DNA of 64,000 nt from Naegleria gruberi (Eukaryota): assembly GCA_000004985.1 (NCBI GenBank), contig GG738909.1. One strand, given 5' to 3'. Positions 24,623 to 53,840 of this stretch are shown in pieces. The translations under genes and the position numbers were made by a program. Within the stretch, counting starts at the first letter, position 1. Each line of letters begins with the position of its first letter. The notes beneath the pieces are model-generated. The model ran no database searches. It was not told the DNA's origin and was given only the letters and a program-made list of their open reading frames with translations.

Positions 24623-24714
24623 TACTCCAAAGTATTATTTGGAGATAGGTAGGCTTCATAACAGAGCTCAAAATAAATTACTCCAAAGTATTATTTGGAG
24701 ATAGGTAGGCTTCT
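24623..24714. repeat. 36-bp direct repeat (ttactccaaagtattatttggagataggtaggcttc) present twice, 20 bp apart. It spans the stop codon and 3' UTR of cyclase copy 1 and is absent from copy 2.
   Basis: Read directly: 24623-24658 is identical to 24679-24714. The homologous 3' end of the paralog at 53225-53290 carries a single copy. Confidence 0.7.
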
Positions 24715-27700
24715 TGATTGATTGTCAAGGTAATATTATCATTGTTTCTTGTTGGTGTTTTGGGTTCATTCAATGTTTCAAGATTTGCAGAATTTTTCTT
24801 TTGTAAAATGTTTAAACTTGTTCTCAACATGTCAGTGAAGGATGGAACAAGAGCTGGAGTGTGATGTTTCTCATGCAACATGTAAGCAATACATTCACCT
24901 TTTCCTTTCACATTTAAATGTCTTTCTTCAAAAGTGAAACCCAAATCATAAACTCTTTCGTAGGTTGATCTGGAAATTTGAATTCTTCCTGGAATTGAAT
25001 TAGATTCCATTCTTGAAGCTGTATTAATTGTATCTCCCCATAAATCCTATTTAATTAAATATTAAGATGAAGTATTGAAAATGTACATGTTAAAATGTTA
25101 AAATGTTGAAATTAAAAACATACATATGCAAATTTCTTCCTCCCAATAACACCTGCAATAACACTTCCAGTATTAATACCAACACGAATATTAATTTGTT
25201 CAGATGGATGTTTTCCTGATTTTGAATTAAATCTTTGTAAAACATCAAATGTATCAATGGAAAATCTCAAAATTCTTTCAGGATGATCTGATTGTGCATT
25301 CAATCCATGTAATCCACCCACACAAAAATATGAATCTCCAATCGTTTTAATCTTTTCCAAATTATACTTGTCTGTCAAATCATCAAATCCAATTACAATT
25401 TCATTCAACATTTGAACCAATTCAGATGCTTGAATTCCAGTACTCAATTTTGTAAATCCCACCATGTCACTAAAAAAACATGAAACATCATTGAATTTCT
25501 CTGCAATATAAGTTTCTCCTGATTTCAATTTACTTGCTACTGCACTTGGTAAAATATTCAATAATAATTCTTCAGAATGTTTCTTTTCTTCTGTCAATAA
25601 TGAATTATGTTTCTTCTCTGTTGTAATATCCTTAATGAAACAAGTTACAACACTTTGAGAATTGTGAAGAGTGGCAAAAATATTGACACGTGATGGGAAG
25701 CTTGTTTGATTCTTTCTGATACATTCCAATTCAATAGAATCTCCTTTCGAATCACCTCTTGCTGCATTCACCAACATTTCATCAATGAGGTTTTTAATTT
25801 TCGATTGCTCATTCTTTTCAAATAATTGATACAATGATCTTCCAATCGTTTCTGTTTGATTGTATCCAAATATCTTTTGAGCTGCTGGATTGAATATTTC
25901 AATATCAACCTTCTCTCCACTGCACATCACTGCTCCATCTACAGATGCATTCAAAATGCTTCGAACTTTTGAGTCACCTTCCCCTAAATTTGACTTCTTT
26001 TTGAGGAGGGAAGACAATGTATTTGGAATATGGTGATGTACAATGTAATTCTTGATATTTTCATTAGAATCCATTAACTCAATTGATAAATAGTTAAAAA
26101 GAAGACGAAGTTGTTGGACAGAGTTGGCATGTTGATGTAAGGACCAACGAATGGCAAGTGAAATGGAGATAATTGCAATAAATCCAACGAAACTGAATGC
26201 GTAGACAAGTTCTTCATCAGTTATGGCAGCATCTTTTGAAAAAACAGTAGAAAAATCAATCAATTGATCTGAAATGGCTCTGGAAAGATGGAAATGTTTA
26301 ACAAACGTTTCGAACAGCTTCAAGTTATTAATTTTTCCGTTTTCATCCATTAGCTCCATTATTTCATTGGAAATTGTGACGAAATTTGTAATCATATCAT
26401 CAATTCCCATAACGCACGAATGATTACCATCTTCTTTAAACATGTCAGTCAATGTACAATTTTCCTGACCTGCCACGAGTAAATTTACATCATCAAATTT
26501 TCCAAGTATGGTATTTTCTGGATTCTCTCCAATGGATGTTCCATAAATACATAAATTCCAATGGTTTTTCAAGTCACTTGATTTTTCAGTAACATAATGC
26601 TTTGGATTGGATGTAAAATTGTATAAATTAGAAACTCTGAAGAAAGCATCATTGTTGGAGCGAAATCCAGATATAATATACTTCTCAGTGATAAAATTAC
26701 TCAAATATTGAATATCTTCAAAAGTTTGGAATGATTCTTTCATAATAACATAGGATCCGTAACATTGATTCACATTTTGTAAAGTTTCCAATAAGAATAG
26801 CCCACAACAAACTGAAACAATTAGAGAGAGAATAAGAGCCAATACAACTACAACACTCCTTGGATATTTCCAAACACTCTTGACTGGATGAGTTGATGTA
26901 TCATCATTGACTACCTTACTCAATTCATGGAATAATCTTCCTGCATCATTTTTTGAAACATTCTTCTCAATGAGAAGAACTATCTTTGTTATAACAGATA
27001 GATCTAACTTAGAGTAGAATACATAAAGAGATGTATAGAGGAAGTAGACTGTCACAATGATGGAAAAGTAAATGATAAAAGTATTAGTAATTAGTTGAGT
27101 TTCATCCTTTGAACTGGAAACAAAATTCACACAAAAATCAGAATAGGCAGTAACCATTCTCTCGGAATTAAAGTACTGCACATGATTAGAATAAAACTCT
27201 AGAACAACTAACTTACCAATAACATAAAGGGATAACTTGACAGAAAACTCTCTAGGTCTGCTAGTCCAAATTTAGAAATAGTTTCAGAGTGTGTATAGAA
27301 TAAATTTGTAATATCTGCAATAGTGGTATTAGTAGTGGTCGAAATGTTATAAACCTTATCGATTTCTGTTGCTGGCCATGAAGTTGGTAAATTGAAAGTG
27401 TAATAAATTTCATGATATTCAGAGTACATTTCCTGTGTGAATTTTCCGTCATGAACCAATTCTCGCACTGATTTCAAAATGTCCCTGTAAGTATTAATGT
27501 GTTCTAACATTTCTTCATGATAATGTTCCAAAGAAGTATATCCATACTTGGACATGACATTCATCCATTCAACCATTGAGTGATTGTACAAATATGTGAT
27601 TGGTTGAAAAGCTCTCATACTAGACATGATCTGAACAGAGGCGCCAACTGGAGCACAAGCTGTTTCCACTATTTTAACAGTGCCTGAAATATAGGATGAG

Positions 27701-30087
27701 AATGAAACACTCAAAGCCAAACTAACACTCAAAAACAAGATGGAAAATAAGACAAATAGAGAGAAGAGGAAAACTTGGAGAGTGTGTCTGTGTGGAAGGC
27801 TCAGTGAAGTTCTGAATACGTTTTCCTTTCTAAATTCTGGATTATTCTCAATTCCATTGAATTCTGGATTGGTTTCTGCCTCTTTCTGATCGCCATAGAA
27901 TGAACTGCTCTCACTTCTAATGTCGTGTTCCTGGAGATGGATACCAATATTTGGGCCTTCTTGTGTTGGAACTATTCTGTTTTTAAACTTGGACTTTTGA
28001 TTCCTCTTCTTTCTTAATTGAGCATTTCTTTTGGTTTCTTCCTCTTCCAAACTTGATGCTTCAGCATACAGCTCTTGAGCAGCATCCTTATTAAACTTGA
28101 ATTCTTCAATGTATTTGGCAAAATTTCGTAATAAATTCTTGTCATTCTTATAAATTGCCAACATGTTCAAAAACTTGGTTTCACATTCATTGGAAATAAT
28201 TCCCATTCTTACAATGATTGATTCAATCTTATCCCTCAAGACACATTCCTGGAGCATTTCCTTCCAGAACATTCTGTGAAGGGCTTTCAATTCATTTTGT
28301 CTCCTTTCGAGAATGAACATTACTTCACTCATTTCTTCAGTATTTTTGGCATTTGGATTAATTTGATGAACTATAATGTCAACTTCCTTCTGTTTCAAAT
28401 AGATGAGGAATCTATACCATGTATTTGGTCTCTTTTTTATGGCTCTCCTTAAAATTCCTTTGGAAAATGTTGTGGCATTGACATCATTTACGAGACAATT
28501 TGATGCTATAGAACTTGATAAGAGAAGAATATCATTATCGAGTTGTGAGTTGAGTGATGATATACCTCTAACAAGAGAAAGAGACATTTTCAGATTGCTC
28601 AACATATTTGGATTGCTGGAAAGAGTTGGATCTTCTTCATCTGTTGGAATCTTTTCCTTAATGGAGAATTTCAAAAAAAGTTTCAGATAATTCAACTTTT
28701 TGGATTCTAGAAAGTATTGGTAAATATTAATGGAATCCTTCTCGATTGCCTTTTCCAGTAAATCAGGGAAACCATTATTAGATTCATTTCTAATACCTTC
28801 AATTACAATAAATCGAACACTTCTAATCAAAATTCTTGTAATCGCCTCCATTACCATCATTCCAACAAAAAAAGAGATGATAATCATTGCCAAAGTCATT
28901 CCAGCTAGACCAATTCCCAGCACATTATCAACTGACTTGTAAATTGCCGAAAGATTTGGATTATTTACAACGCCACTAATTAGAGAACCAAAACTTGAGA
29001 AGATCCTTGCAGATAACACTCCAACCATAATGGAATTCTCAAATCTCTTAAAATATGGAACGTTTTTCGAAAAACCAATCATTAAACCAATCGAAACTAT
29101 CAAATGCACAATCGATCTGATAAATGCATACTGAGGAGGAATCACATAATGTGAAAGAATTTGGAATTGAGTACAAATCATTGTTCCAATAAGGAAAATT
29201 GGATGATCAGAAGTGAATGGAGAAAAGTGTTGGGGATGACAATTCGTCACAATTAATAGAGAAAAACATGATAATATCATTTGAATGATTATTCCAATAA
29301 TCATGATGGCCATGAAGGCAATATTAATAGTTGAATAACATTCAATGTTCTGGTTTGAATATTGTAAAAAACGGTTGAGAACTGAGACAGAACCAAGATT
29401 ACAATCAAGTGGTGTTGTCAATAGGTAAACAGCTGGAAGAGAAACGAGTAGAAAAAGTTTCGAACCAAGGGCCAAACCTTTCTTTGTCCATTTCAAATAT
29501 TGAGAAGTTGTTTTGTAAGCATACACACTCCAAACCAAGTAAACAATAAATAACAGCTCTACAGCTATAACCACAAACGCTAGAGCCAACGAACCTATAT
29601 AAGGTAACCTTTCGAATGATAAAGTCAAAGGATAGTTCAATACAGAAAAAACCCATGTTCCCCACTCTCCGTATTTCATTTCCATTCCAAGATTTGGCAA
29701 GAATATACCAATCCAAAATACATAAGTATGAAATAGTAAACTAATCAAATAGGAATATAGACCTTCTCTTAATTGTGCCTCTTGCATGAAGAATATAAAA
29801 TCCATAAGTTGATTTCTGAGCTTGATTCCAATCGAAATCTCAGAGCCAGTAATATCTGTTGTTGAATATTTGGAATGTTGGGACGAGAAGGATACATTTG
29901 ATGAGCTAGAGGTATGTTGTCCATGAACTGAGGGAATATTCAGATAACTTGTTGGAGTCGTCTGGTTTCTAGCAACGGTTGACCCACGACGTGAAGTACT
30001 AGCAATAGAGATTGAATCCTCTTCTATGGCAATATTGTTGTTGTTAGTATTATTCAATTGATTTATACTAGCATTGGGATGCAACAT
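24678..30087 (-). CDS. Multi-TM, PAS-domain, class III adenylyl/guanylyl cyclase, copy 1; complement(join(24678..25046, 25124..27175, 27217..30087)), about 1763 aa.
   Basis: - Two clusters of TM helices, a PAS-like segment (ILNASVDGAVMCSGEKVDIEIFNPAAQKIFGYNQTETIGRSLYQLF), then the cyclase domain (FSDMVGFTKL, KIKTIGDSYFCVGGL, DLWGDTINTASRMES).
- Intron 27176-27216 (41 nt, GTAAGT..CAG, phase 0).
- Intron 25047-25123 (77 nt, GTATGT..AG, phase 0) splits FAY|DLWGDT.
- Paralogous to 47986-53257. Confidence 0.8.
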
Positions 30088-30563
30088 GTTTTTTTGTAGT
30101 TGTTTTGTTGTAGACTTTCGTTTGGAATGAATCTAAGAATTATTTTCTAATCCATTGTTTGAAACTTTCTGATTTAAACTTGATAGAGAATTTGGATATA
30201 AATAGAAATATTAAGCAGTGTACCGTTAGAATTTAAAATACAATAATGAGCTAGATGTGTTTTCAGGTAATGCACATATACAGATTATGTAATTCTTGAA
30301 GAAGTATTAAATAACTTCATTTAACTTCATTTAGCTAGAATGCTAGCACCATACAATTATACATCAGATTGATTCATTATGAAAACATGTCTGTGTCCAT
30401 TTAAATACAGTTCCCTGTTTGCATTCCGTGCTTGTAATATAATAATAATTACTATCATCATTAGTGATAATTATCACTACATATTCGAAAAATCAGCTGC
30501 CAAGTATCATCTGTAGTTTTTTTTACGTTATTTTTGGTGGGAAATTTTTAGGGAAAGTTTTCT

Positions 30564-32405
30564 GTGGAGGAGTGTGATAAAATTTTCAAAGCAATAGATA
30601 AACCAAATTTATATCTTCTAACAACGTTTCTTAAAAAACCAATAGATATGCAAAGGAAAAGGGACTTGTGGAAGCAATTTGATAACATGATTCAGAAAAT
30701 GTCAATTCAACAAAAGAAAAAAACATCAATTCATATTTGTGGAATTTCATCATTAGGGAAATGTGCCAATACAATTTCCAATCGGCAATGGATTATTTCT
30801 ACTTGGTGAAGAGAAAATCTAGCTTTATTGGAGAAGTACACTTTGAATAATTTATTAAATTCGTGCAGTACTTTTGGAACGTGGGAGGCTGAGTTTATAT
30901 TTCGAAACATTGAGGCACGTGACAAGTTTCATTATTCCTGCTACATCAAAGCTGGATGCACCACAAAAGAATCTGCTTTAAAGCTGGAAGAATTAATTAT
31001 TAATAGTGGATTTTTCAATGATATAATTGTCCAAACAAGCCTCATTTCTATGTTCTCCAAGTGTGGGTTATTAGAAAGGTCTATTGAACTGTTCAACAGC
31101 ATGGAGAAGAAACCAACAGCAAGATGGAATGCAATGCTTTCCGCATACGCACATCACTCTCTTTACAATGAAGTACTACTGTTATTCAGCGAGATGGAGG
31201 AATCTTCAATTGAGACGGACAAGCAAACTTTTAGCTATGCTATTCTAGCCCTATCGAGTCTTGGAAAATCTCACTATCATGCACTAATCAAGGGATGTAT
31301 TAACAGTTCGAATTTCTCAAGCTTTGAATGTTTTAGAGCTGATGAAAAGAAAGCGAATTCCACTAAGCTCTCGAATATTTATATCACTCATGAATGAATG
31401 CATCAAAAGTGGTATTTTGTATGATGCAAAAGTTTTACATCAAGAAATTGTTGAAAATCTACCTTCTTTTTTGTCTGATCCCTTTCTGGTAGTGTCATTA
31501 ATTAATATGCTTGGTTGTTTCAATCAGTCCCAGGCAGTATTGGATGTTTTTGGTGGGTACAATGGACAAGATGTGGCCGTGTTAAATGTTACATTGTCAG
31601 CTCTTTACAAGGATGGTTTAATTCATAATGCTCTCAATCTATTCTATGAAAATACGAAAAATTACAAGTTTGATGAAAAAACATTTACAATTATTTTAAC
31701 AATGTGCAAAGACATGCAAAACGACGATAGTGTAAAGGGTCAACAATATTTTGAAATGATGAAACAATATGAAGTTGAACCAAATATCTTCCATTATACA
31801 TGTCTTATCAAGTGTTTTCTCTCAGAAAAGCAATTTGAAAGGGCTCTGGATATTCTCTTTGATATTCATTTGAAAGGAATTCTAATTGATGATGCTTGCT
31901 TTAACTCTTCCGGGGGGTCTCTTTAAATCATGATCATTATGAAAATTACAATGGAATTGCATCAAATAATCATCACGATGAAGGAAACTTTTCATTCTTC
32001 TTTTATTGATTTCTGTGCCCAGTACAGTATGAGAGAATTGGCTGGTAGAGTTCACATATAATGAAAGATTTTGGACATAAACCAAATATACAACTCTTCA
32101 ATATGCTAAATATGTACTTGAATGTTGGAAATTTTGAAAAAGCTCTAGAACTGTATAAAGAATTAAGAAATCAAGCCAATATTATCACTTGCAACATTCT
32201 CATATCTGGATTAACTTTGAATGGGCAGGGTAAAGAAGCTATTAGGATATTCAAAGAAATGAATATAGCCCCTAATGGCACCACATTTGCTGCAGTGTTG
32301 AATGCATGTAGTCATTGTGGATTAATTAAGGAAGGATTTCAAATCTATGAAAGTATGCAAACAAATCATGGTATTGAACCAGATGGTCGGACTTTTAATG
32401 TTTGA
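30564..32405 (+). pseudogene. Plant-type PLS-class pentatricopeptide repeat (PPR) gene, degraded: in-frame TGA, at least two frameshifts and a C-terminal truncation.
   Basis: - PLS-style repeats: LISMFSKCGLLERSIELFNSMEKKPTARWNAMLSAYAHHSLYNEVLLLFSEMEESSIETDKQTFSYAILAL and ITCNILISGLTLNGQGKEAIRIFKEMNIAPNGTTFAAVLNACSHCGLIKEGFQIYESMQTNHGIEPDGRTFN.
- In-frame TGA at 30807-30809.
- Frame-3 to frame-1 shift at about 31311-31320, and a further shift between 31926 and 32061.
- The ORF ends at 32405, where the duplicated coiled-coil segment begins, with no E/DYW extension. Confidence 0.6.
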
Positions 32406-33998: not shown

Positions 33999-34119
33999 GG
34001 CTACGGCCATATCACGATGAATGCACCTCATCCCGTCCGATTTGAGAAGTTAAGCATCGTCGAGCCACATCAGTACTGAGGTTGGAGACAACTTGGGAAC
34101 CTGTGGTGCTGTAGTCTTT
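33999..34119 (+). rRNA. 5S: 5S ribosomal RNA gene (solitary).
   Basis: GGCTACGGCCATATCACGATGAATGCACCTCATCCCGTCCGATTTGAGAAGTTAAGCATCGTCGAGCC...GGGAACCTGTGGTGCTGTAGTC matches the universal eukaryotic 5S pattern (GCCTACGGCCATACC...CCCGTCCGATCTG..GAAGTTAAGC...GGGAA...GGTGCTGTAGGC). About 120 nt. Confidence 0.85.
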
Positions 34120-41972: not shown

Positions 41973-42044
41973 TCCCGTGTAGTCCAATGGCTAGGATACC
42001 TGGCTTTCACCCAGGAGGTCCGGGTTCAATTCCCGGCATGGGAG
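41973..42044 (+). tRNA. tRNA-Glu (anticodon TTC).
   Basis: TCCCGTGTAGTCCAATGGCTAGGATACCTGGCTTTCACCCAGGAGGTCCGGGTTCAATTCCCGGCATGGGA folds as a cloverleaf. The 7-bp acceptor stem has one G-U pair and the anticodon loop is CTTTCAC. No encoded CCA. T-runs follow at 42051-42060. Confidence 0.85.
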
Positions 42045-47985: not shown

Positions 47986-50900
47986 ATGACATCTCTCAAT
48001 GTTAATGTGTTTGACGATAGAGGTTCAAACAGTTCTCAAAGTAATTCGAGGGTGCTGCTCTCTCCACCTCAGGGAGCCAACAATTACTTACTAATTCCAA
48101 CCAGTAACTATGCAGGATCATCAGTATGTTCCTCTGACAGACATTCCAAAACTGACATTTCAGGTTCTGAAGTTAATGCGGTAACAAAACTGAAGAACTC
48201 GACTTTGGAGTTTGTACTCTTCATACAAGACAACCAAGTGAAGGAGGGAATCTATGGTTATGTGATAACCTTGTTGATTCACTTGTACATGTTTTGGATT
48301 GGAATTTTTCTACCAAATCTTGGACCAGAAATGATGTACGGAGATTGGGGAACATGGATTTTCTCAGTACTCAACTATGCTATTACTCTCTCATTTGAAA
48401 GGATCCCTTATAAGGGAGGTATTGTATTGGCTTTTATTGGAGTAGGTATTGTATTGGTATTTGTAATTCTATTGATCTGGACAATCTTTGCCTACAAGAC
48501 AACCTCCCAACATTTAAAGAACTCGAGAAGAGCTATTGCCATCTTTTCCAAAGTATTTCCATTCATATCAGTACCTCTCTTGTACTTGATGACATTCTCT
48601 CTTGATTGTAATTATACAGTAAGCTCATCAAATCTGAATAGATTTGAATTCTATTCCCATGAGGTGATCCAATGCCACGATACTAGCAATATTATATTTG
48701 TGGTGGTAATGATCTTGGCCATCCTGTTATTGATTATACTCAATGTATTCTCCATGCTCATTGTACCAAACTGCCATCCTCAAAATATAGCTCCATTTGT
48801 GACCGATAATCCAGTTTTCATGAGCTTGTTAGTTGCCTTCAATCTGTGGCAACTCTTTTTACACTTTATCATTCCAACACAATACTCTTTTATGAGAGCT
48901 ATTGTTCATAGTGTTGGATCTATTATTTTAATTATAATTTTTGCCAAGCTGATTCCATTCATTAGAAGAATTGAGAATAGTATTGTATTTGGTTGCCTGT
49001 TGGCTAGATTAGCTTCGAGTATTGGAGCTATTGTAACTTCTATTGTAAATAACCCATCCCTATCAAAGATACTGCCATCGGTGGATAATACACTTGGTGT
49101 TGGACTTGCAGGTCTAACTATTGGTTTGATTATTATTGGTTTTGTGCTTGGTTTCTCCCTTATGGAATTGTATACGAGATTTATTGTGAGATCTATTAGA
49201 AACTTTGTTCTGGAATGTATTCAATCAGATAATGATGAAACAAATCTAGATTCCAAAGAAACTGAAAAATACATTGAGAAAGAAGCACAAATTATTTATC
49301 AACAGTTGGTTGAGTCAAGAAAATTAAGGCACCTTAGAATATTCTTTAAATTTTCTATGAAATTCAAAGAAAAATATCCAACGGAAAAATCAGAAACGCC
49401 CACACAGCACAATCTACTCGATATTTATATTTGTATTGCTCTGATTAAGGGGTTCTCTTCCAATAACCAATTAGATAATGAGATTATCCTTCTCTCTAGT
49501 ATGATTATTGCAAATTATTTGCCAAACGAGGTCAATTCTACAACATTTGCTCAAGGACTTTTGAAGAAAGCTTTTAAAAGAAGACCATCCACTTACTATA
49601 ATTTATTAATTAGTCTAGCTCAAAAACAAGTAGAAGCAACGGTCTATCAAACCAATCCAGAGAGCAGAAACAATGTTGAAATGGCCAAGCTTATTGGTCA
49701 CTTAGAAAGAAGACAGGATGAATTACGAGCACTTCACAGAGCTTTCTGGAAGGAAATCATGCAAGAAAATATCAATCATGAAAAATGTGAATCTATTATT
49801 GTAAGGATTGGGATATTGTCTCATGAATGTGAAACTAAATTCAAGAATTTAATGCACATTTACAAAAACGACAAGACAGTTCTTCGATGTGTTGCTAAAT
49901 ATGTAGAATCTTTTAAATTCAATAAGGAAGCTGCTCAGGAATTATATTCTGAAGCAACAACAATTGAAGAAGAGGATTCCAAACGAATGAATGCCTCCTC
50001 TAAAAGAAGAATTAAAAAGAACCAAAAGAACAGAGTGCATCCTCAACAAATCAGTCACGCTTTTGAGACGTTATCTTATGGTGATGCTAATCATCATGAG
50101 GTAGAGTCCACTGTTGTAGGAGATTTGAATAACGATTTTGGTGGTGTTGAGAATAATCCAGAATTGAAGAAGGAGCTTCTGTTCAGGAATGCATTGGCCA
50201 TCTCACATAAGAATCATTCACATCTCACAATGTTTTTCATTTTCATTGTGCTATCCTTGCTAATTTTGGTTTCAACATTAGTAATGAGCTTGATGTTTTC
50301 GAATTATGTTACTGAGAGCGTACTTGTTGTGGATACTGCCTGTACACCGATTGCATCTGCTATTCGAATTGTTAGTGGAACAAGAAGTTATCAGAGCTCT
50401 CTATTGTTGTACAGTTCCAATTCATCAGCTTGGCCTTCATTATTGGCAGAATATGGCTACTCGAGCCTTTCTGAATTCAAGAAAGCTCACAAGAAAGAGC
50501 TAAGGGATAATATTGATTACTTAATTCTATTGAAAGAGCTAGCACAAACAGCCAAGTTTACCACTGATATGTACTCTGAATTTCATGAATACTACTATAG
50601 CTTTAATCAACCAAAGGCAAATACTAATGGTTTGGAAAAGATTTACAACTCTACCACAGCTATCAATATTACCATTGCAGATATTACTAATTTGGCTATA
50701 ACCTATTCAGAGCAGATTTACAAATTTGAAGATGAGGATTATCTACATACTTTCAGCAGTTATCCTTTCATGATACTATTCAACAATAGGAATATTATGA
50801 CAGCAGCTTATTCTTCATTCTGTTACAAATTTGTTGAGGAATCCAAGAGCTATACCAAGACGATTTCCAATACTTTTATTATTTACTACTCTTGCTCAAT

Positions 50901-53257
50901 TGTTGTTTATTTTACTTACACTGCTATTTATTTGTGCTTTGCAAGATTGGATTTGTCTTTTTTGAAAAAGCTTATTGTTTTATTGGAAAAGAATGTGTCA
51001 AAGCATGAAGCAGGAAAAATGTATCACAATTTGGGCAAGCTAGTCCAAGATGACAGCTCTGTAAGACCGGCCAAGAACTCTGCTTTATACCCTAGGAATG
51101 TTGTGGTAGGATTGGGAATTGTGACAGCAATCTGTGTTGCACTCTGTGCTGGTTTGTTCCTAGCTCAAACTCTCAGCAATTCTCAATACAGCTTTGAGTC
51201 CTATGTCACCATGAGGGATGCTTTCAATGCATTAGAAAACTCCCAATATATTGCAGAAGCGATAACTGAGGAATTCATTAATTTAAAAATTGCTGACAAA
51301 ACATTTATTAATGGATTGGTTTCATCTAATACTGAGCGTTCTGAATCTATTCAAGCATCAATTAAGAAATTAAGATTCTATTGGAATATGTGCATGTATG
51401 GGTCTAATTATTACCCAGATGAGACTCTTGTGATTGGTCTTTTCGAAAAGACTGATTTGATGATAAAGGGAGAAGCTAATTGTACATTTGAAAAGATGAT
51501 TTCACATAATTGCAGCATTGGTGTTGATAAATTGATCACAACTTACACGACTAAAGCCACACAACTCACAGAAGATATTGATCTCAAATCAACAACATTT
51601 GAATCATTATTTGATGACTATTTGGTAGTTAGTTTTTTCTCTACCTATGTAAGCAATTCATTACTGTCATTTTCAGATGTATTTGCTATGGCTGCCTCTG
51701 TTCCATCAGACAAGTTGGTGATTCCATTTGCCATTCTTGGATTTTTGACTTTGTTTATATTCTCGATTGGTATTTACATGTCAATGGGAAAGTATTTCAA
51801 TTCAGTCCAACAACTGCGTCTTCTTTTCAATTATCTACCTCTAGACTTGATGGACTCAAACGAAAATATTAAGAATTATATTGTACATCATCATCTTCCT
51901 GACTCATTCTCAAACATTTTTAGAAGAAAGAAAGGTTCTTCATCAGAGGGCGACTCAAAAGTTCGAAGCATTTTGAACGCATCTGTAGATGGAGCAGTGA
52001 TGTGCAGTGGAGAGAAGGTTGATATTGAAATATTCAATCCAGCAGCTCAAAAGATATTTGGATATAATCAAACAGAAACGATTGGCAGATCATTGTATCA
52101 ATTATTTGAAAAGAATGAGCAATCGAAAATTAAAAACCTCATTGATGAAATGTTAGTGAATGCAGCAAGAGGTGATTCGAAAGGAGATTCTATTGAATTG
52201 GAATGTATCAGAAAGAATCAAACAAGCTTCCCATCACGTGTCAATATTTTTGCCACTCTTCACAATTCTCAAAGTGTTGTCACTTGTTTCATTAAGGATA
52301 TTACAACAGAGAAGAAGCATAATTCATTATTGACAGAAGAAAAGAAACATTCTGAAGAATTATTATTGAATATTTTACCAAGTGCAGTGGCAAGTAAATT
52401 GAAATCAGGAGAAACTTATATTGCAGAGAAATTCAATGATGTTTCATGTTTTTTTAGTGACATGGTTGGATTTACAAAATTAAGTACTGGAATTCAAGCA
52501 TCTGAATTGGTTCAAATGTTGAATGAAATTGTAATTGGATTTGATGATTTGACAGACAAATATAATTTGGAAAAGATTAAAACGATTGGAGATTCATATT
52601 TTTGTGTGGGTGGATTACATGGATTAAATGCACAATCAGATCATCCTGAAAGAATTTTGAGATTTTCCATTGATACATTTGATGTTTTACAAAGATTTAA
52701 TTCAAAATCAGGAAAACAACCATCTGAACAAATTAATATTCGTGTTGGTATTAATACTGGAAGTGTTATTGCAGGTGTTATTGGGAGGAAGAAATTTGCC
52801 TATGTATGTTTTTAATTTCAACATTTTAACATTTTATTGTGTAAATTGTACATTTTCAATATTTCATATTAATATATTAATTAAATAGGATTTATGGGGA
52901 GATACAATTAATACAGCTTCAAGAATGGAATCTAATTCAATTCCAGGAAGAATTCAAATTTCCAGATCAACCTATGAAAGAGTTTATGATTTGGGTTTCA
53001 CTTTTGAAGAAAGACATTTAAATGTGAAAGGAAAGGGTGAATGTATTGCTTACATGTTGCATGAGAAACATCACACTCCAGCTCTTGTTCCATCCTTCAC
53101 TGACATGTTGAGAACAAGTTTAAACATTTTACAAAAGAAAAATTCTGCAAATCTTGAAACATTGAATGAACCCAAAACACCAACAAGAAACAATGATAAT
53201 ATTACCTTGACAATCAATCAAGAAGCCTACCTATCTCCAAATAATACTTTGGAGTAA
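47986..53257 (+). CDS. Multi-TM, PAS-domain, class III adenylyl/guanylyl cyclase, copy 2; join(47986..52803, 52889..53257), about 1728 aa.
   Basis: Same architecture as copy 1. Intron GTATGT at 52804, acceptor AG at 52887-52888 (85 nt), splitting FAY|DLWGDTINTASRMES. There is no intron at the position of the copy-1 41-nt intron. Confidence 0.8.
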
Positions 53258-53840
53258 TTTATTTTGAGCTCTGTTATGAACAAAGATGAGTTCTAAATGA
53301 AAGACCTCCAGTGAATAGGCTTGCCAAACGAGGTGCAAGATTAAGCAACAAATCCCAAAATGAGAATTGATTGTGTTTACACTCCGTAATTCACATCAGC
53401 GGTGTTGCTCAGTTTGGAAGAAATTCAAATGGTTCATATTGAGATATTTCACTTTGATAGTTTGATAGGGATGAGTATATTCTGTATTGACTTAATAAAT
53501 TGTAGTTAACCATCAGTTTACTTCACAATAAAGATGTGTAAGTGTATTAATGTCTCTTGTATCAAAAACGACCTGAGAGACCACACTTTTCGGCATTTAA
53601 GGACTCTGTGCAACATTTGAATGATTTGGGTTAAGATTGAGTGCCTAAAGTAGGCAGTTTACTTCACATAATACGCACTTCTAGTTGCTTTCATGTGTTT
53701 CAGAGTAATAAGACGGTGCCATTTTCTGTTGTTCCAACTAAAGAATTTTTCACCACTGTCACATGCAAACCGCCCTCTATGAGAAAACTAATCTTATCAT
53801 ACGTAATTAGTCAACCAATTACTTTCCATCTCATAAAAAA

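What the first reader, a model, noticed from the sequence alone, without database searches (positions are those of the whole stretch)
27176..27216. Intron presence/absence polymorphism between the cyclase paralogs
Copy 1 needs a 41-nt GTAAGT...CAG intron (27176-27216) to keep the frame, reading ...SYPFMLL|YFNSERMVTAY. Reading through it hits TAG. At the homologous position copy 2 reads straight through (...SYPFMILFNNRNIMTAAY) with no intron.

This is a recent intron gain or loss between paralogs. In a genome with very short introns it is a useful case for the mechanism.
Basis: seen in the sequence. Interest (0 to 1): 0.5.

Follow-up and report, generated by a model that had tools for sequence, protein, structure and literature searches.

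The report
Old intron lost from one cyclase paralog
One of two neighbouring Naegleria gruberi cyclase genes carries an ordinary 41-base intron, already in the public gene model, that its sister gene most likely lost long ago; this is a routine case of intron loss.

Summary
On the minus strand, 27216..27176 is a 41-nt GTAAGT...CAG phase-0 intron. Read through, it gives VS-TAG; removed, it joins two long ORFs. The paralog on the plus strand reads through the homologous point (50778|50779) with an ungapped protein alignment.

The window is Naegleria gruberi NEG-M. The protein obtained by removing this intron and a 77-nt 3' intron is exactly the reference protein NAEGRDRAFT_73946 (XP_002671034.1), so the intron is already annotated.

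'Recent' is not supported. Around the site the copies are about 45% identical in protein, with third codon positions near 40%. Only the last 1.5 kb is 95% identical overall, and 98-99% over the last ~400 codons (gene conversion). The N. fowleri relative FDP41_007387 has a 57-nt intron at exactly the same codon boundary, so the position predates the species split.

In the segment holding the site, my likelihood test groups intron-less copy 2 with the intron-bearing N. fowleri gene (RELL 0.86-0.91), which implies one precise loss in copy 2. The tree is mosaic, so a gain is not excluded.

A 98.8%-identical strain keeps the intron, and the downstream exon shows pN/pS 0.13, so copy 1 is not a pseudogene. 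No other copy of the 41-mer was found. Low interest.

The parts
27176..27216 (-). Intron A of copy 1 (NAEGRDRAFT_73946): 41 nt, GTAAGT...TTCTAATCATGTGCAG, phase 0, with an in-frame TAG at its third codon.
   Evidence: Its removal is part of the exact match to XP_002671034.1. It is kept in strain contig L001 with one T>C change at 27193.
27217..30087 (-). Copy 1 exon 1, 957 codons: multi-pass membrane region, TPR_TmcB domain and most of the extracellular-like region.
25124..27175 (-). Copy 1 exon 2, 684 codons: second membrane region, PAS domain and most of the cyclase domain.
   Evidence: Against strain L001 it shows 16 synonymous and 8 non-synonymous changes, pN/pS 0.13.
25047..25123 (-). Copy 1 intron D: 77 nt, GTATGT...AAATAG, phase 0, after KKFAY in the cyclase domain.
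24678..25046 (-). Copy 1 exon 3, from DLWGDTINTASRMES to the stop codon.
47986..52803 (+). Copy 2 exon 1. It is uninterrupted across the site homologous to intron A. The reference annotates it as NAEGRDRAFT_81665, a model that runs on into the 3' intron.
50778..50779 (+). The point in copy 2 homologous to intron A (…ATG ATA CTA | TTC AAC…). No intron is present and the protein alignment has no gap here.
52804..52888 (+). Copy 2 intron D: 85 nt, at the same position as in copy 1 and nearly the same sequence.
52889..53257 (+). Copy 2 last exon. The reference annotates it as a separate 110-aa gene, NAEGRDRAFT_81666.
24655..26126 (-). Homogenised tract in copy 1, matching copy 2 at 51798-53280: 95% identical overall and 98-99% over the last ~400 codons, intron D and the start of the 3' UTR. 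I read it as a recent gene conversion. It does not reach intron A.
51798..53280 (+). The same homogenised tract in copy 2.

Best explanation
27216..27176 (minus strand) is a canonical U2-type GT-AG spliceosomal intron: 41 nt, phase 0, 5' GTAAGT, a TTCTAAT branch-like motif ending 9 nt before the CAG.

It lies in the N. gruberi NEG-M gene NAEGRDRAFT_73946, a membrane-bound cyclase with TPR_TmcB, PAS and class III adenylate/guanylate cyclase domains. It is spliced out to join codons L957 and Y958. The public gene model already does this.

The intron position is old. The N. fowleri relative FDP41_007387 has a 57-nt intron at exactly the same codon boundary. The neighbouring paralog, NAEGRDRAFT_81665 plus 81666, about 18 kb away between gene ends and in opposite orientation, once had this intron and lost it by a precise excision that left the reading frame and flanking codons intact.

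The most likely route is recombination of the gene with a reverse-transcribed spliced mRNA. That step is inferred and not shown. The loss happened long ago, since the flanking synonymous sites are saturated.

Shown: the intron and its boundaries, its conservation in a second strain and in N. fowleri, its absence from copy 2, and selection on the downstream frame. Inferred: the direction (loss, not gain) and the mechanism of loss.
For: 1. Anatomy and frame.
2. The spliced product is exactly XP_002671034.1.
3. Strain contig L001 is 98.8% identical and keeps GT...AG, with one substitution inside the intron and no exon indels. Exon 2 has 16 synonymous and 8 non-synonymous changes, pN/pS 0.13, binomial P = 1.5e-6. 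Exon 1 has pN/pS 0.19. The frame after the intron is therefore translated.
4. N. fowleri contig L003 reads gtt ttg|GTAAGTATTTAAGC...TTGAATAG|ttc tta aac, a 57-nt phase-0 intron after SYPFMVL. The annotated protein FDP41_007387 reads SYPFMVL FLNADYVTSAYSDFC.
5. Copy 1, copy 2 and FDP41_007387 form one clade. NJ bootstrap was 96% in the 27-taxon tree and 300/300 for the whole unconverted region in the 8-taxon set, though only 170-220/300 in the sub-segments around the site.
6. In the segment that holds the site, ML with RELL gives ((copy2,Nf),copy1) 0.86 for aa 500-1310 and 0.91 for aa 750-1310. The only topology under which a single gain is parsimonious, ((copy1,Nf),copy2), gets 0.02-0.07. NJ by region agrees.
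7. With either of the other two topologies, one loss in copy 2 explains the pattern; the alternative is two gains.
8. The excision is exact: the alignment across the site has no gap.
Against: 1. No transcript evidence could be obtained here.
2. The three-way relationship is not uniform along the gene. Aa 1-500 favours (copy1,Nf) or (copy1,copy2) and rejects (copy2,Nf). Polarised shared-state site counts over aa 1-1310 are 30/31/31. The history is therefore mosaic, or distorted by unequal rates. Copy 1 is the more diverged gene in aa 1044-1336, and long-branch attraction could mimic (copy2,Nf).
3. The nearer outgroup paralogs sampled have uninterrupted genomic ORFs across the site: N. fowleri FDP41_001627, FDP41_011611 and FDP41_003060. 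So the intron was gained at some point within or just before this clade.
4. Intron positions in this family are labile (offsets of 1 and 9 nt), which weakens parsimony.
5. The 3'-most intron is retained. That is not the pattern expected of the classical 3'-biased reverse-transcriptase model.
Confidence: 0.7

Rival explanations
1. Gain, not loss. The intron was inserted once in a common ancestor of copy 1 and N. fowleri FDP41_007387, and copy 2 descends from a lineage that never had it.
For: The nearer outgroup paralogs sampled lack an intron at the site (continuous ORFs P0257, P0259/P0261, P0269). In aa 1-500, ((copy1,Nf),copy2) is the best topology, RELL 0.54 and NJ 61%. The N. fowleri gene has two further introns, B and C, that neither N. 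gruberi copy has and whose positions were not seen in other family members. This suggests gains do occur in this family.
Against: In the segment that contains the site, this topology has RELL 0.02-0.07 and NJ support of 3-14% depending on the segment. It also requires N. fowleri to have lost its copy-2 orthologue.
Confidence: 0.2
2. Parallel gain at a preferred site. Copy 1 and the N. fowleri gene acquired introns independently at the same codon boundary, and copy 2 never had one.
For: A distant subfamily (N. fowleri FDP41_007173 and FDP41_007427/8) has a phase-2 intron only 1 nt upstream of this site. In the cyclase domain, five intron positions fall within about 12 codons across paralogs. 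The two clade-A introns show no evident sequence similarity beyond the splice-site consensus, by eye.
Against: Same codon boundary and same phase in two members of one well-supported clade is most simply shared ancestry. Lack of intron sequence similarity is expected once neutral sites are saturated. The copy 2 sequence at the site, CTA|TTC, shows no MAG|GT-like proto-splice motif.
Confidence: 0.07
3. Copy 1 is a decaying pseudogene, and the 41 nt are a frameshifting insertion that is not spliced.
Against: The sequence has a canonical GTAAGT...CAG with a branch-like TTCTAAT motif. Both flanking ORFs are intact in two strains with no indels. pN/pS is 0.13 in the downstream exon, P = 1.5e-6. The same intron is annotated as spliced in N. 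fowleri.
Confidence: 0.02
4. The intron is a recent insertion of a mobile, introner-like element.
For: None found.
Against: Only one copy in the window at up to 3 mismatches, and only 8-13-nt chance matches by blastn-short. There were 0 exact matches in the JGI metagenome contigs. The position is shared with N. fowleri, so it is not recent. At 41 nt it is far shorter than the introners I know of (own knowledge).
Confidence: 0.01

Closest known systems
Reference gene model NAEGRDRAFT_73946 (XP_002671034.1, EFC38290.1, UniProt D2VY24) of Naegleria gruberi NEG-M
   Same: The protein I obtained by removing 27216..27176 and 25123..25047 is identical to it over all 1763 residues. The intron is therefore the one already in the public annotation.
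   Different: Nothing differs for copy 1. The reference does not treat the paralog consistently: copy 2 is split into NAEGRDRAFT_81665 (1609 aa, running into the 3' intron) and NAEGRDRAFT_81666 (110 aa).
Naegleria fowleri FDP41_007387 (XP_044568923.1), the closest relative outside N. gruberi
   Same: Same domain order, TPR_TmcB, PAS, Guanylate_cyc. It has an intron at exactly the same codon boundary and phase.
   Different: That intron is 57 nt, not 41, with no evident sequence similarity beyond the splice-site consensus. The gene has two extra introns: B, 155 nt, phase 2, after WNMC; and C, 116 nt, phase 1, after AEKFSD. Its cyclase-domain intron lies after GKKK, 9 nt upstream of the N. gruberi position after KKFAY.
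Precise intron loss in paralogs and orthologues through recombination with reverse-transcribed mRNA, the standard model of intron loss (own knowledge of the literature)
   Same: The removal is exact, with no change of frame or of flanking codons. The gene is expressed and under selection.
   Different: No 3' bias: the 3'-most intron is kept. No diagnostic trace of the event survives at this divergence. Genomic deletion with microhomology cannot be excluded.
Near-coincident intron positions among homologues ('near intron pairs' or intron sliding; own knowledge)
   Same: A distant subfamily has an intron 1 nt upstream, phase 2 against phase 0. Several paralogs have cyclase-domain introns a few codons apart.
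   Different: Within the clade that matters for this finding the position is identical and not merely near. The near-coincident cases were only partly checked at the DNA level.

Membership tests
U2-type GT-AG spliceosomal intron | GT at the 5' end and AG at the 3' end, with the genome's usual extended 5' site | tested here: met
   GTAAGT...CAG. GTAAGT is the 5' site at 8 of the 10 donor sites in the window's candidate list, and the other two are GTATGT.
U2-type GT-AG spliceosomal intron | Branch-point-like motif shortly upstream of the 3' AG | tested here: inconclusive
   TTCTAAT ends 9 nt before the terminal CAG. The N. fowleri paralog intron has TTCTAAC in a similar place. This is motif resemblance only; no branch mapping was possible.
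U2-type GT-AG spliceosomal intron | Removal restores one conserved reading frame that continues to align with homologues | tested here: met
U2-type GT-AG spliceosomal intron | The spliced junction is seen in RNA | not testable with these tools
   No transcript contig carrying the product was on record. Indirect support comes from pN/pS 0.13 in the downstream exon.
U12-type (minor) intron | An extended, highly conserved U12-type 5' splice-site motif (consensus recalled from memory, not checked against a source here) | tested here: not met
   The 5' end is GTAAGTTAG, which is the ordinary U2-type site of this genome.
Introner or introner-like mobile element | Many near-identical copies at unrelated intron sites | tested here: not met
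   A single copy in the 64-kb window and none in the JGI metagenome contigs. The whole N. gruberi genome could not be searched.
Introner or introner-like mobile element | Recent insertion, absent from orthologues | tested here: not met
   The position is shared with N. fowleri FDP41_007387.
Reverse-transcriptase-mediated intron loss (for copy 2) | Exact excision of the intron | tested here: met
   The alignment across 50778|50779 has no gap.
Reverse-transcriptase-mediated intron loss (for copy 2) | Adjacent introns lost together, with a bias to the 3' end | tested here: inconclusive
   Relative to the N. fowleri gene, copy 2 lacks A, B and C but keeps the 3'-most intron. Copy 1 also lacks B and C. 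Whether B and C are ancestral is unknown.
Membrane-bound PAS-domain class III adenylate/guanylate cyclase (the expanded Naegleria family) | PAS and Guanylate_cyc catalytic domains after a long membrane region | tested here: met
   Pfam: PF00211 at 2.5e-53, PF13426 at 1.2e-14, PF25474 at 2e-12. There are 125 family hits, and those I could identify were Naegleria. The literature reports at least 81 cyclases in Naegleria (PMC9928731).
Processed or decaying pseudogene (for copy 1) | Neutral evolution, frameshifts or stop codons downstream of the lesion | tested here: not met
   No exon indels between two strains. pN/pS is 0.13 in exon 2 and 0.19 in exon 1.

The most novel reading that the evidence does not exclude
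The site is one of several intron 'hot spots' in the Naegleria PAS-cyclase family, where introns are repeatedly gained, lost or shifted. Three observations point that way. There is a phase-0 intron in clade A and a phase-2 intron 1 nt upstream in a distant subfamily. Five different intron positions fall within about 12 codons of the cyclase motif GVIG.KKFAYDLWG. The 3' intron is offset by 9 nt even between the N. gruberi genes and their N. fowleri relative. If so, the family would be a natural system for studying ongoing intron turnover in a free-living excavate, and the difference between copy 1 and copy 2 could be one product of that turnover and not a simple one-off loss.
Probability: 0.2. 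Interest if true: 0.5.

Novelty: already known. Interest (0 to 1): 0.15.

Why it matters
It matters little. The intron is already part of the public N. gruberi gene model, and differences in intron content between old paralogs are common in eukaryotes.

There are three modest gains:
- A polarised example (probable loss) in an excavate, a group where intron history is poorly sampled.
- A correction to the reference annotation: copy 2 is split into two models at its 3' intron, and at least two other family models are truncated in the same way.
- A pointer that this large cyclase family has unusually scattered and near-coincident intron positions, which might repay a systematic study.

Tried and rejected
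1. Word-indexed protein searches. The search for homologous proteins with copy 1 and with a five-sequence N-terminal profile returned only 2-3 family members. Low-complexity words probably crowded the candidate list, but I did not test that. The exhaustive representative search and cluster look-ups were what worked.

2. N. gruberi genomic DNA for other paralogs. P0002, P0006 and P0272 are 'not on record', so the intron state of other N. gruberi family members could not be read from DNA.

3. Synteny. The N. lovaniensis region around AP-2 alpha (L002) has no cyclase. The N. fowleri contig L003 shares no flanking genes with either copy. Orthology could not be settled by gene order.

4. Metagenome scans. 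A clade-A profile found no related locus and the 41-mer found no match.

5. Transcript evidence. None was retrievable.

6. First NJ tree. On the N-terminal 830 columns it gave (copy1,copy2) 86%. I do not rely on it, because region-wise NJ and ML showed a mosaic signal.

7. GA-AG intron. I considered that the GAAAGT 5' end in L004 was a genuine non-canonical intron. I rejected this because another N. fowleri strain has GTAAGT there, and L004 carries further lesions in the same gene.

8. Tandem repeat in the copy 1 3' UTR. Tandem Repeats Finder reports nothing there. The duplication is visible by eye.

9. Published N. gruberi intron-length statistics. The genome paper is not held, so I used the candidate introns of the window instead.
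Full report
**1. What is at the coordinates**

The gene is on the minus strand. Read 5'->3' on that strand, the sequence is ...AGT TAT CCC TTT ATG TTA TTG | GTAAGTTAGTTGTTCTAGAGTTTTATTCTAATCATGTGCAG | TAC TTT AAT TCC GAG AGA ATG GTT ACT GCC TAT....

- The 41 nt occupy 27216..27176.
- They begin GTAAGT and end CAG.
- Length is not a multiple of three, and the third in-frame codon is TAG.
- They separate a 959-aa ORF (27208-30087) from a 689-aa ORF (25112-27181).
- A TTCTAAT motif ends 9 nt before the 3' CAG.

A second intron of 77 nt (25123..25047, GTATGT...ATAG) interrupts the cyclase domain after KKFAY.

The paralog lies on the plus strand at 47986-53257. It is one ORF of 1609 aa that reads SSYPFMIL FNNRNIMTAAYSSFC straight across 50778|50779. 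It has only the 3' intron (52804-52888, 85 nt). The two proteins align across the site without a gap.

**2. Which organism and which genes**

- The AP-2 alpha ORF next to copy 1 is 100% identical over its best local alignment (59% of the query) to the N. gruberi protein, and 87% identical to N. lovaniensis.
- The copy 2 ORF is exactly NAEGRDRAFT_81665, on a 250,472-bp scaffold.
- The copy 1 protein I assembled by removing both introns is exactly NAEGRDRAFT_73946 / XP_002671034.1 over 1763 residues.

The 41-nt intron is thus already part of the public N. gruberi NEG-M gene model.

Both proteins carry TPR_TmcB, PAS and Guanylate_cyc domains. They belong to the large Naegleria family of membrane-bound PAS cyclases. 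The exhaustive search returned 125 family hits, and the literature reports at least 81 cyclases in the genus (PMC9928731).

**3. Is the intron really spliced?**

No RNA evidence could be retrieved. Three indirect lines support splicing.

- (a) An environmental contig, L001 (ENA ERZ929261), is 98.8% identical to copy 1. It keeps the intron with GT and AG intact and one T>C change inside it.
- (b) Between the two strains there are no indels in any exon. Exon 1 has 10 synonymous and 7 non-synonymous changes. Exon 2 has 16 and 8, giving pN/pS 0.13, with a binomial P of 1.5e-6 against neutrality. The frame downstream of the intron is therefore under purifying selection, which requires removal of the 41 nt.
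- (c) The homologous intron in N. fowleri is annotated as spliced, and its removal gives the conserved protein.

A truncated pseudogene is very unlikely.

**4. How old is the difference?**

Along the first ~1310 codons the copies are about 45% identical in protein. Third codon positions are about 40% identical, which is saturation for this A+T-rich genome.

The last ~400 codons, intron D and the start of the 3' UTR are 98-99% identical. The whole aligned tract, copy 1 26126..24655 against copy 2 51798..53280, is 95% identical. That is a recent gene-conversion tract, and it ends about 1 kb short of intron A.

The intron difference therefore lies in old, unconverted sequence. 'Recent' is not supported.

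**5. Relatives**

The exhaustive search returned P0125, an ORF that stops at exactly the same place (…TSYPFMVL VSI*).

- Its contig, L003, is from run SRR29240419. I assign that run to N. fowleri because a neighbouring MPN protein on a contig from the same run is identical to FDP41_007429.
- Its DNA reads gtt ttg|GTAAGTATTTAAGC...CATTGAATAG|ttc tta aac. This is a 57-nt phase-0 intron at L003:3926-3982, at the same codon boundary as in copy 1.
- The gene is FDP41_007387, whose annotated protein reads SYPFMVL FLNADYVTSAYSDFC.

That gene has four introns: A (the shared one), B (155 nt), C (116 nt) and D' (92 nt, after GKKK). Copy 1 has A and D. Copy 2 has only D.

Other N. fowleri paralogs have uninterrupted genomic ORFs across the site: FDP41_001627, FDP41_011611 and FDP41_003060.

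A distant subfamily, FDP41_007173 and FDP41_007427/8, has a phase-2 intron 1 nt upstream (tta att tt|GTAAGT...TTCTAACGCTGTTACAG|c tat ctt).

**6. Direction of change**

Copy 1, copy 2 and FDP41_007387 form a clade. NJ bootstrap was 96% in the 27-taxon tree. In the 8-taxon set it was 300/300 for the whole unconverted region, but only 170-220/300 in the sub-segments around the site.

The order within the clade is not uniform along the gene.

| Analysis | Segment (aa) | (copy2,Nf),copy1 | (copy1,copy2),Nf | (copy1,Nf),copy2 |
|---|---|---|---|---|
| Polarised shared-state sites | 1-1310 | 31 | 30 | 31 |
| ML + RELL | 1-1310 | 0.51 | 0.34 | 0.15 |
| ML + RELL | 1-500 | 0.004 | 0.45 | 0.54 |
| ML + RELL | 500-1310 | 0.86 | 0.12 | 0.02 |
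| ML + RELL | 750-1310 | 0.91 | 0.01 | 0.07 |

The ML model was my own script: a BLOSUM62-derived rate matrix with empirical frequencies and four gamma categories, on eight taxa. Region-wise NJ bootstraps agree.

The intron site is at aa 957. In that segment the intron-less copy 2 groups with the intron-bearing N. fowleri gene, and the intron-bearing copy 1 lies outside.

- Under that tree, or under (copy1,copy2), one loss in copy 2 explains the data, against two gains.
- Only under (copy1,Nf) is a single gain as good or better, and that tree has little local support.

I therefore favour loss in copy 2 at about 0.7. The caveats are:
- possible long-branch effects, since copy 1 is the more diverged gene in aa 1044-1336;
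- the mosaic signal along the gene;
- the evident lability of intron positions in this family;
- missing species, since N. lovaniensis and species closer to N. gruberi could not be reached.

**7. Mechanism**

The excision is exact. That fits the standard model of recombination with a reverse-transcribed spliced mRNA (own knowledge). Precise genomic deletion cannot be excluded. No footprint can survive at this divergence, and the retained 3' intron does not fit a simple 3'-biased model. The case is therefore not a useful one for the mechanism of gain or loss.

**8. Introner idea**

- The 41-mer occurs once in the window at up to three mismatches, with 0 expected.
- blastn-short finds only 8-13-nt chance matches.
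- There is no exact match in the JGI metagenome contigs.
- The position is shared with another species.

There is no support for a mobile origin. The full genome was not searchable.

**9. 'Very short introns'**

A mechanical scan for GT(A/G)NGT...YAG segments joining long open frames gave candidate introns of about 48, 52, 64, 77, 83, 85, 115 and 121 nt elsewhere in the window, nearly all with GTAAGT. The 41-nt intron is the shortest of these, but it is not out of line.

**10. Verdict**

This is a real, canonical intron that is already annotated. The presence/absence difference between the paralogs is old and most probably reflects loss from copy 2. It is an ordinary finding of low interest.

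The by-products are more useful than the finding itself: the mis-split model for copy 2, the recent 1.5-kb gene conversion, and the near-coincident intron positions across the family.

Noticed in passing
window 47986-53257 (+): The reference annotation splits copy 2 into two genes: NAEGRDRAFT_81665 (1609 aa, ending ...KKFAYVCF* by reading into the 85-nt intron) and NAEGRDRAFT_81666 (110 aa, the last exon). Spliced, they give one 1728-aa cyclase. NAEGRDRAFT_71278 (ends ...DLWGVSCQ...) and NAEGRDRAFT_61738 (ends ...FFSDM) look truncated at introns in the same way.
   Followed up: partly
window 24655-26126 (-) and 51798-53280 (+): A 1.5-kb tract covering the PAS and cyclase domains, the 3' intron and the start of the 3' UTR is 95% identical overall, and 98-99% over the last ~400 codons. 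The rest of the genes is saturated. This looks like a recent gene conversion between two inverted paralogs whose gene ends are about 18-23 kb apart.
   Followed up: partly
window 25047-25123 (-), 52804-52888 (+); L003:6297-6388: The cyclase-domain intron lies after KKFAY in both N. gruberi copies but after GKKK, 9 nt upstream, in the N. fowleri relative FDP41_007387. Other paralogs appear to have introns after GVIG, after GTKK, after FAYD plus 1 nt, and after DLWG. That makes five positions within about 12 codons. The positions other than the first two are inferred from GTAAGT-like read-through peptides at ORF ends.
   Followed up: partly
L005:4306-4370 and L006:4389-4450 (N. fowleri FDP41_007173 and FDP41_007427/8): A distant subfamily has a phase-2 intron exactly 1 nt upstream of the copy 1 intron site (tt|GTAAGT...AG|c tat). 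This is either a slid intron or an independent insertion at almost the same place.
   Followed up: partly
L004:7679 and L004:9425-9470 (N. fowleri run SRR29240419): In this contig the 5' splice site reads GAAAGT where another strain has GTAAGT. The same gene also shows a 2-nt deletion (gaaaag to gaag) and a damaged next 5' splice site (atg|taggt). These are either sequencing errors of that run or a strain-specific pseudogene. The NCBI models FDP41_007427 and FDP41_007428 are also split here.
   Followed up: partly
window 24623-24713 (-): The copy 1 3' end carries a direct duplication of about 36 nt: gaagcctacctatctccaaataatactttggagtaa occurs twice, about 55 nt apart. It includes the last codons and the stop, and it is absent from copy 2 (seen). 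Tandem Repeats Finder does not report it.
   Followed up: no
window 30552-31532: About 1 kb upstream of copy 1 is missing from the 98.8%-identical environmental contig L001, whose first 292 nt map to 31533-31824. In the window this stretch holds part of a PPR-repeat gene (ORFs 30828-31926). It is either a strain deletion or a metagenome mis-assembly.
   Followed up: partly
P0134 (ENA contig, 1736-aa uninterrupted ORF; same 90% cluster as NAEGRDRAFT_72081): At least one family member is a single uninterrupted genomic ORF with no introns at all. Intron number in this family therefore ranges from 0 to at least 4.
   Followed up: no
window 33999-34117 (+) and 41973-42044 (+): A 5S rRNA gene (105 bits) and a tRNA gene lie between the two cyclase copies.
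   Followed up: no
copy 1 aa 1-500 versus aa 500-1310 (window 28588-30087 versus about 26100-28590): The genealogy of copy 1, copy 2 and the N. fowleri gene changes along the gene. The N-terminal third rejects (copy2,Nf) at RELL 0.004, while the rest supports it at 0.86-0.91. This suggests an older recombination or conversion event, or strong rate shifts.
   Followed up: partly
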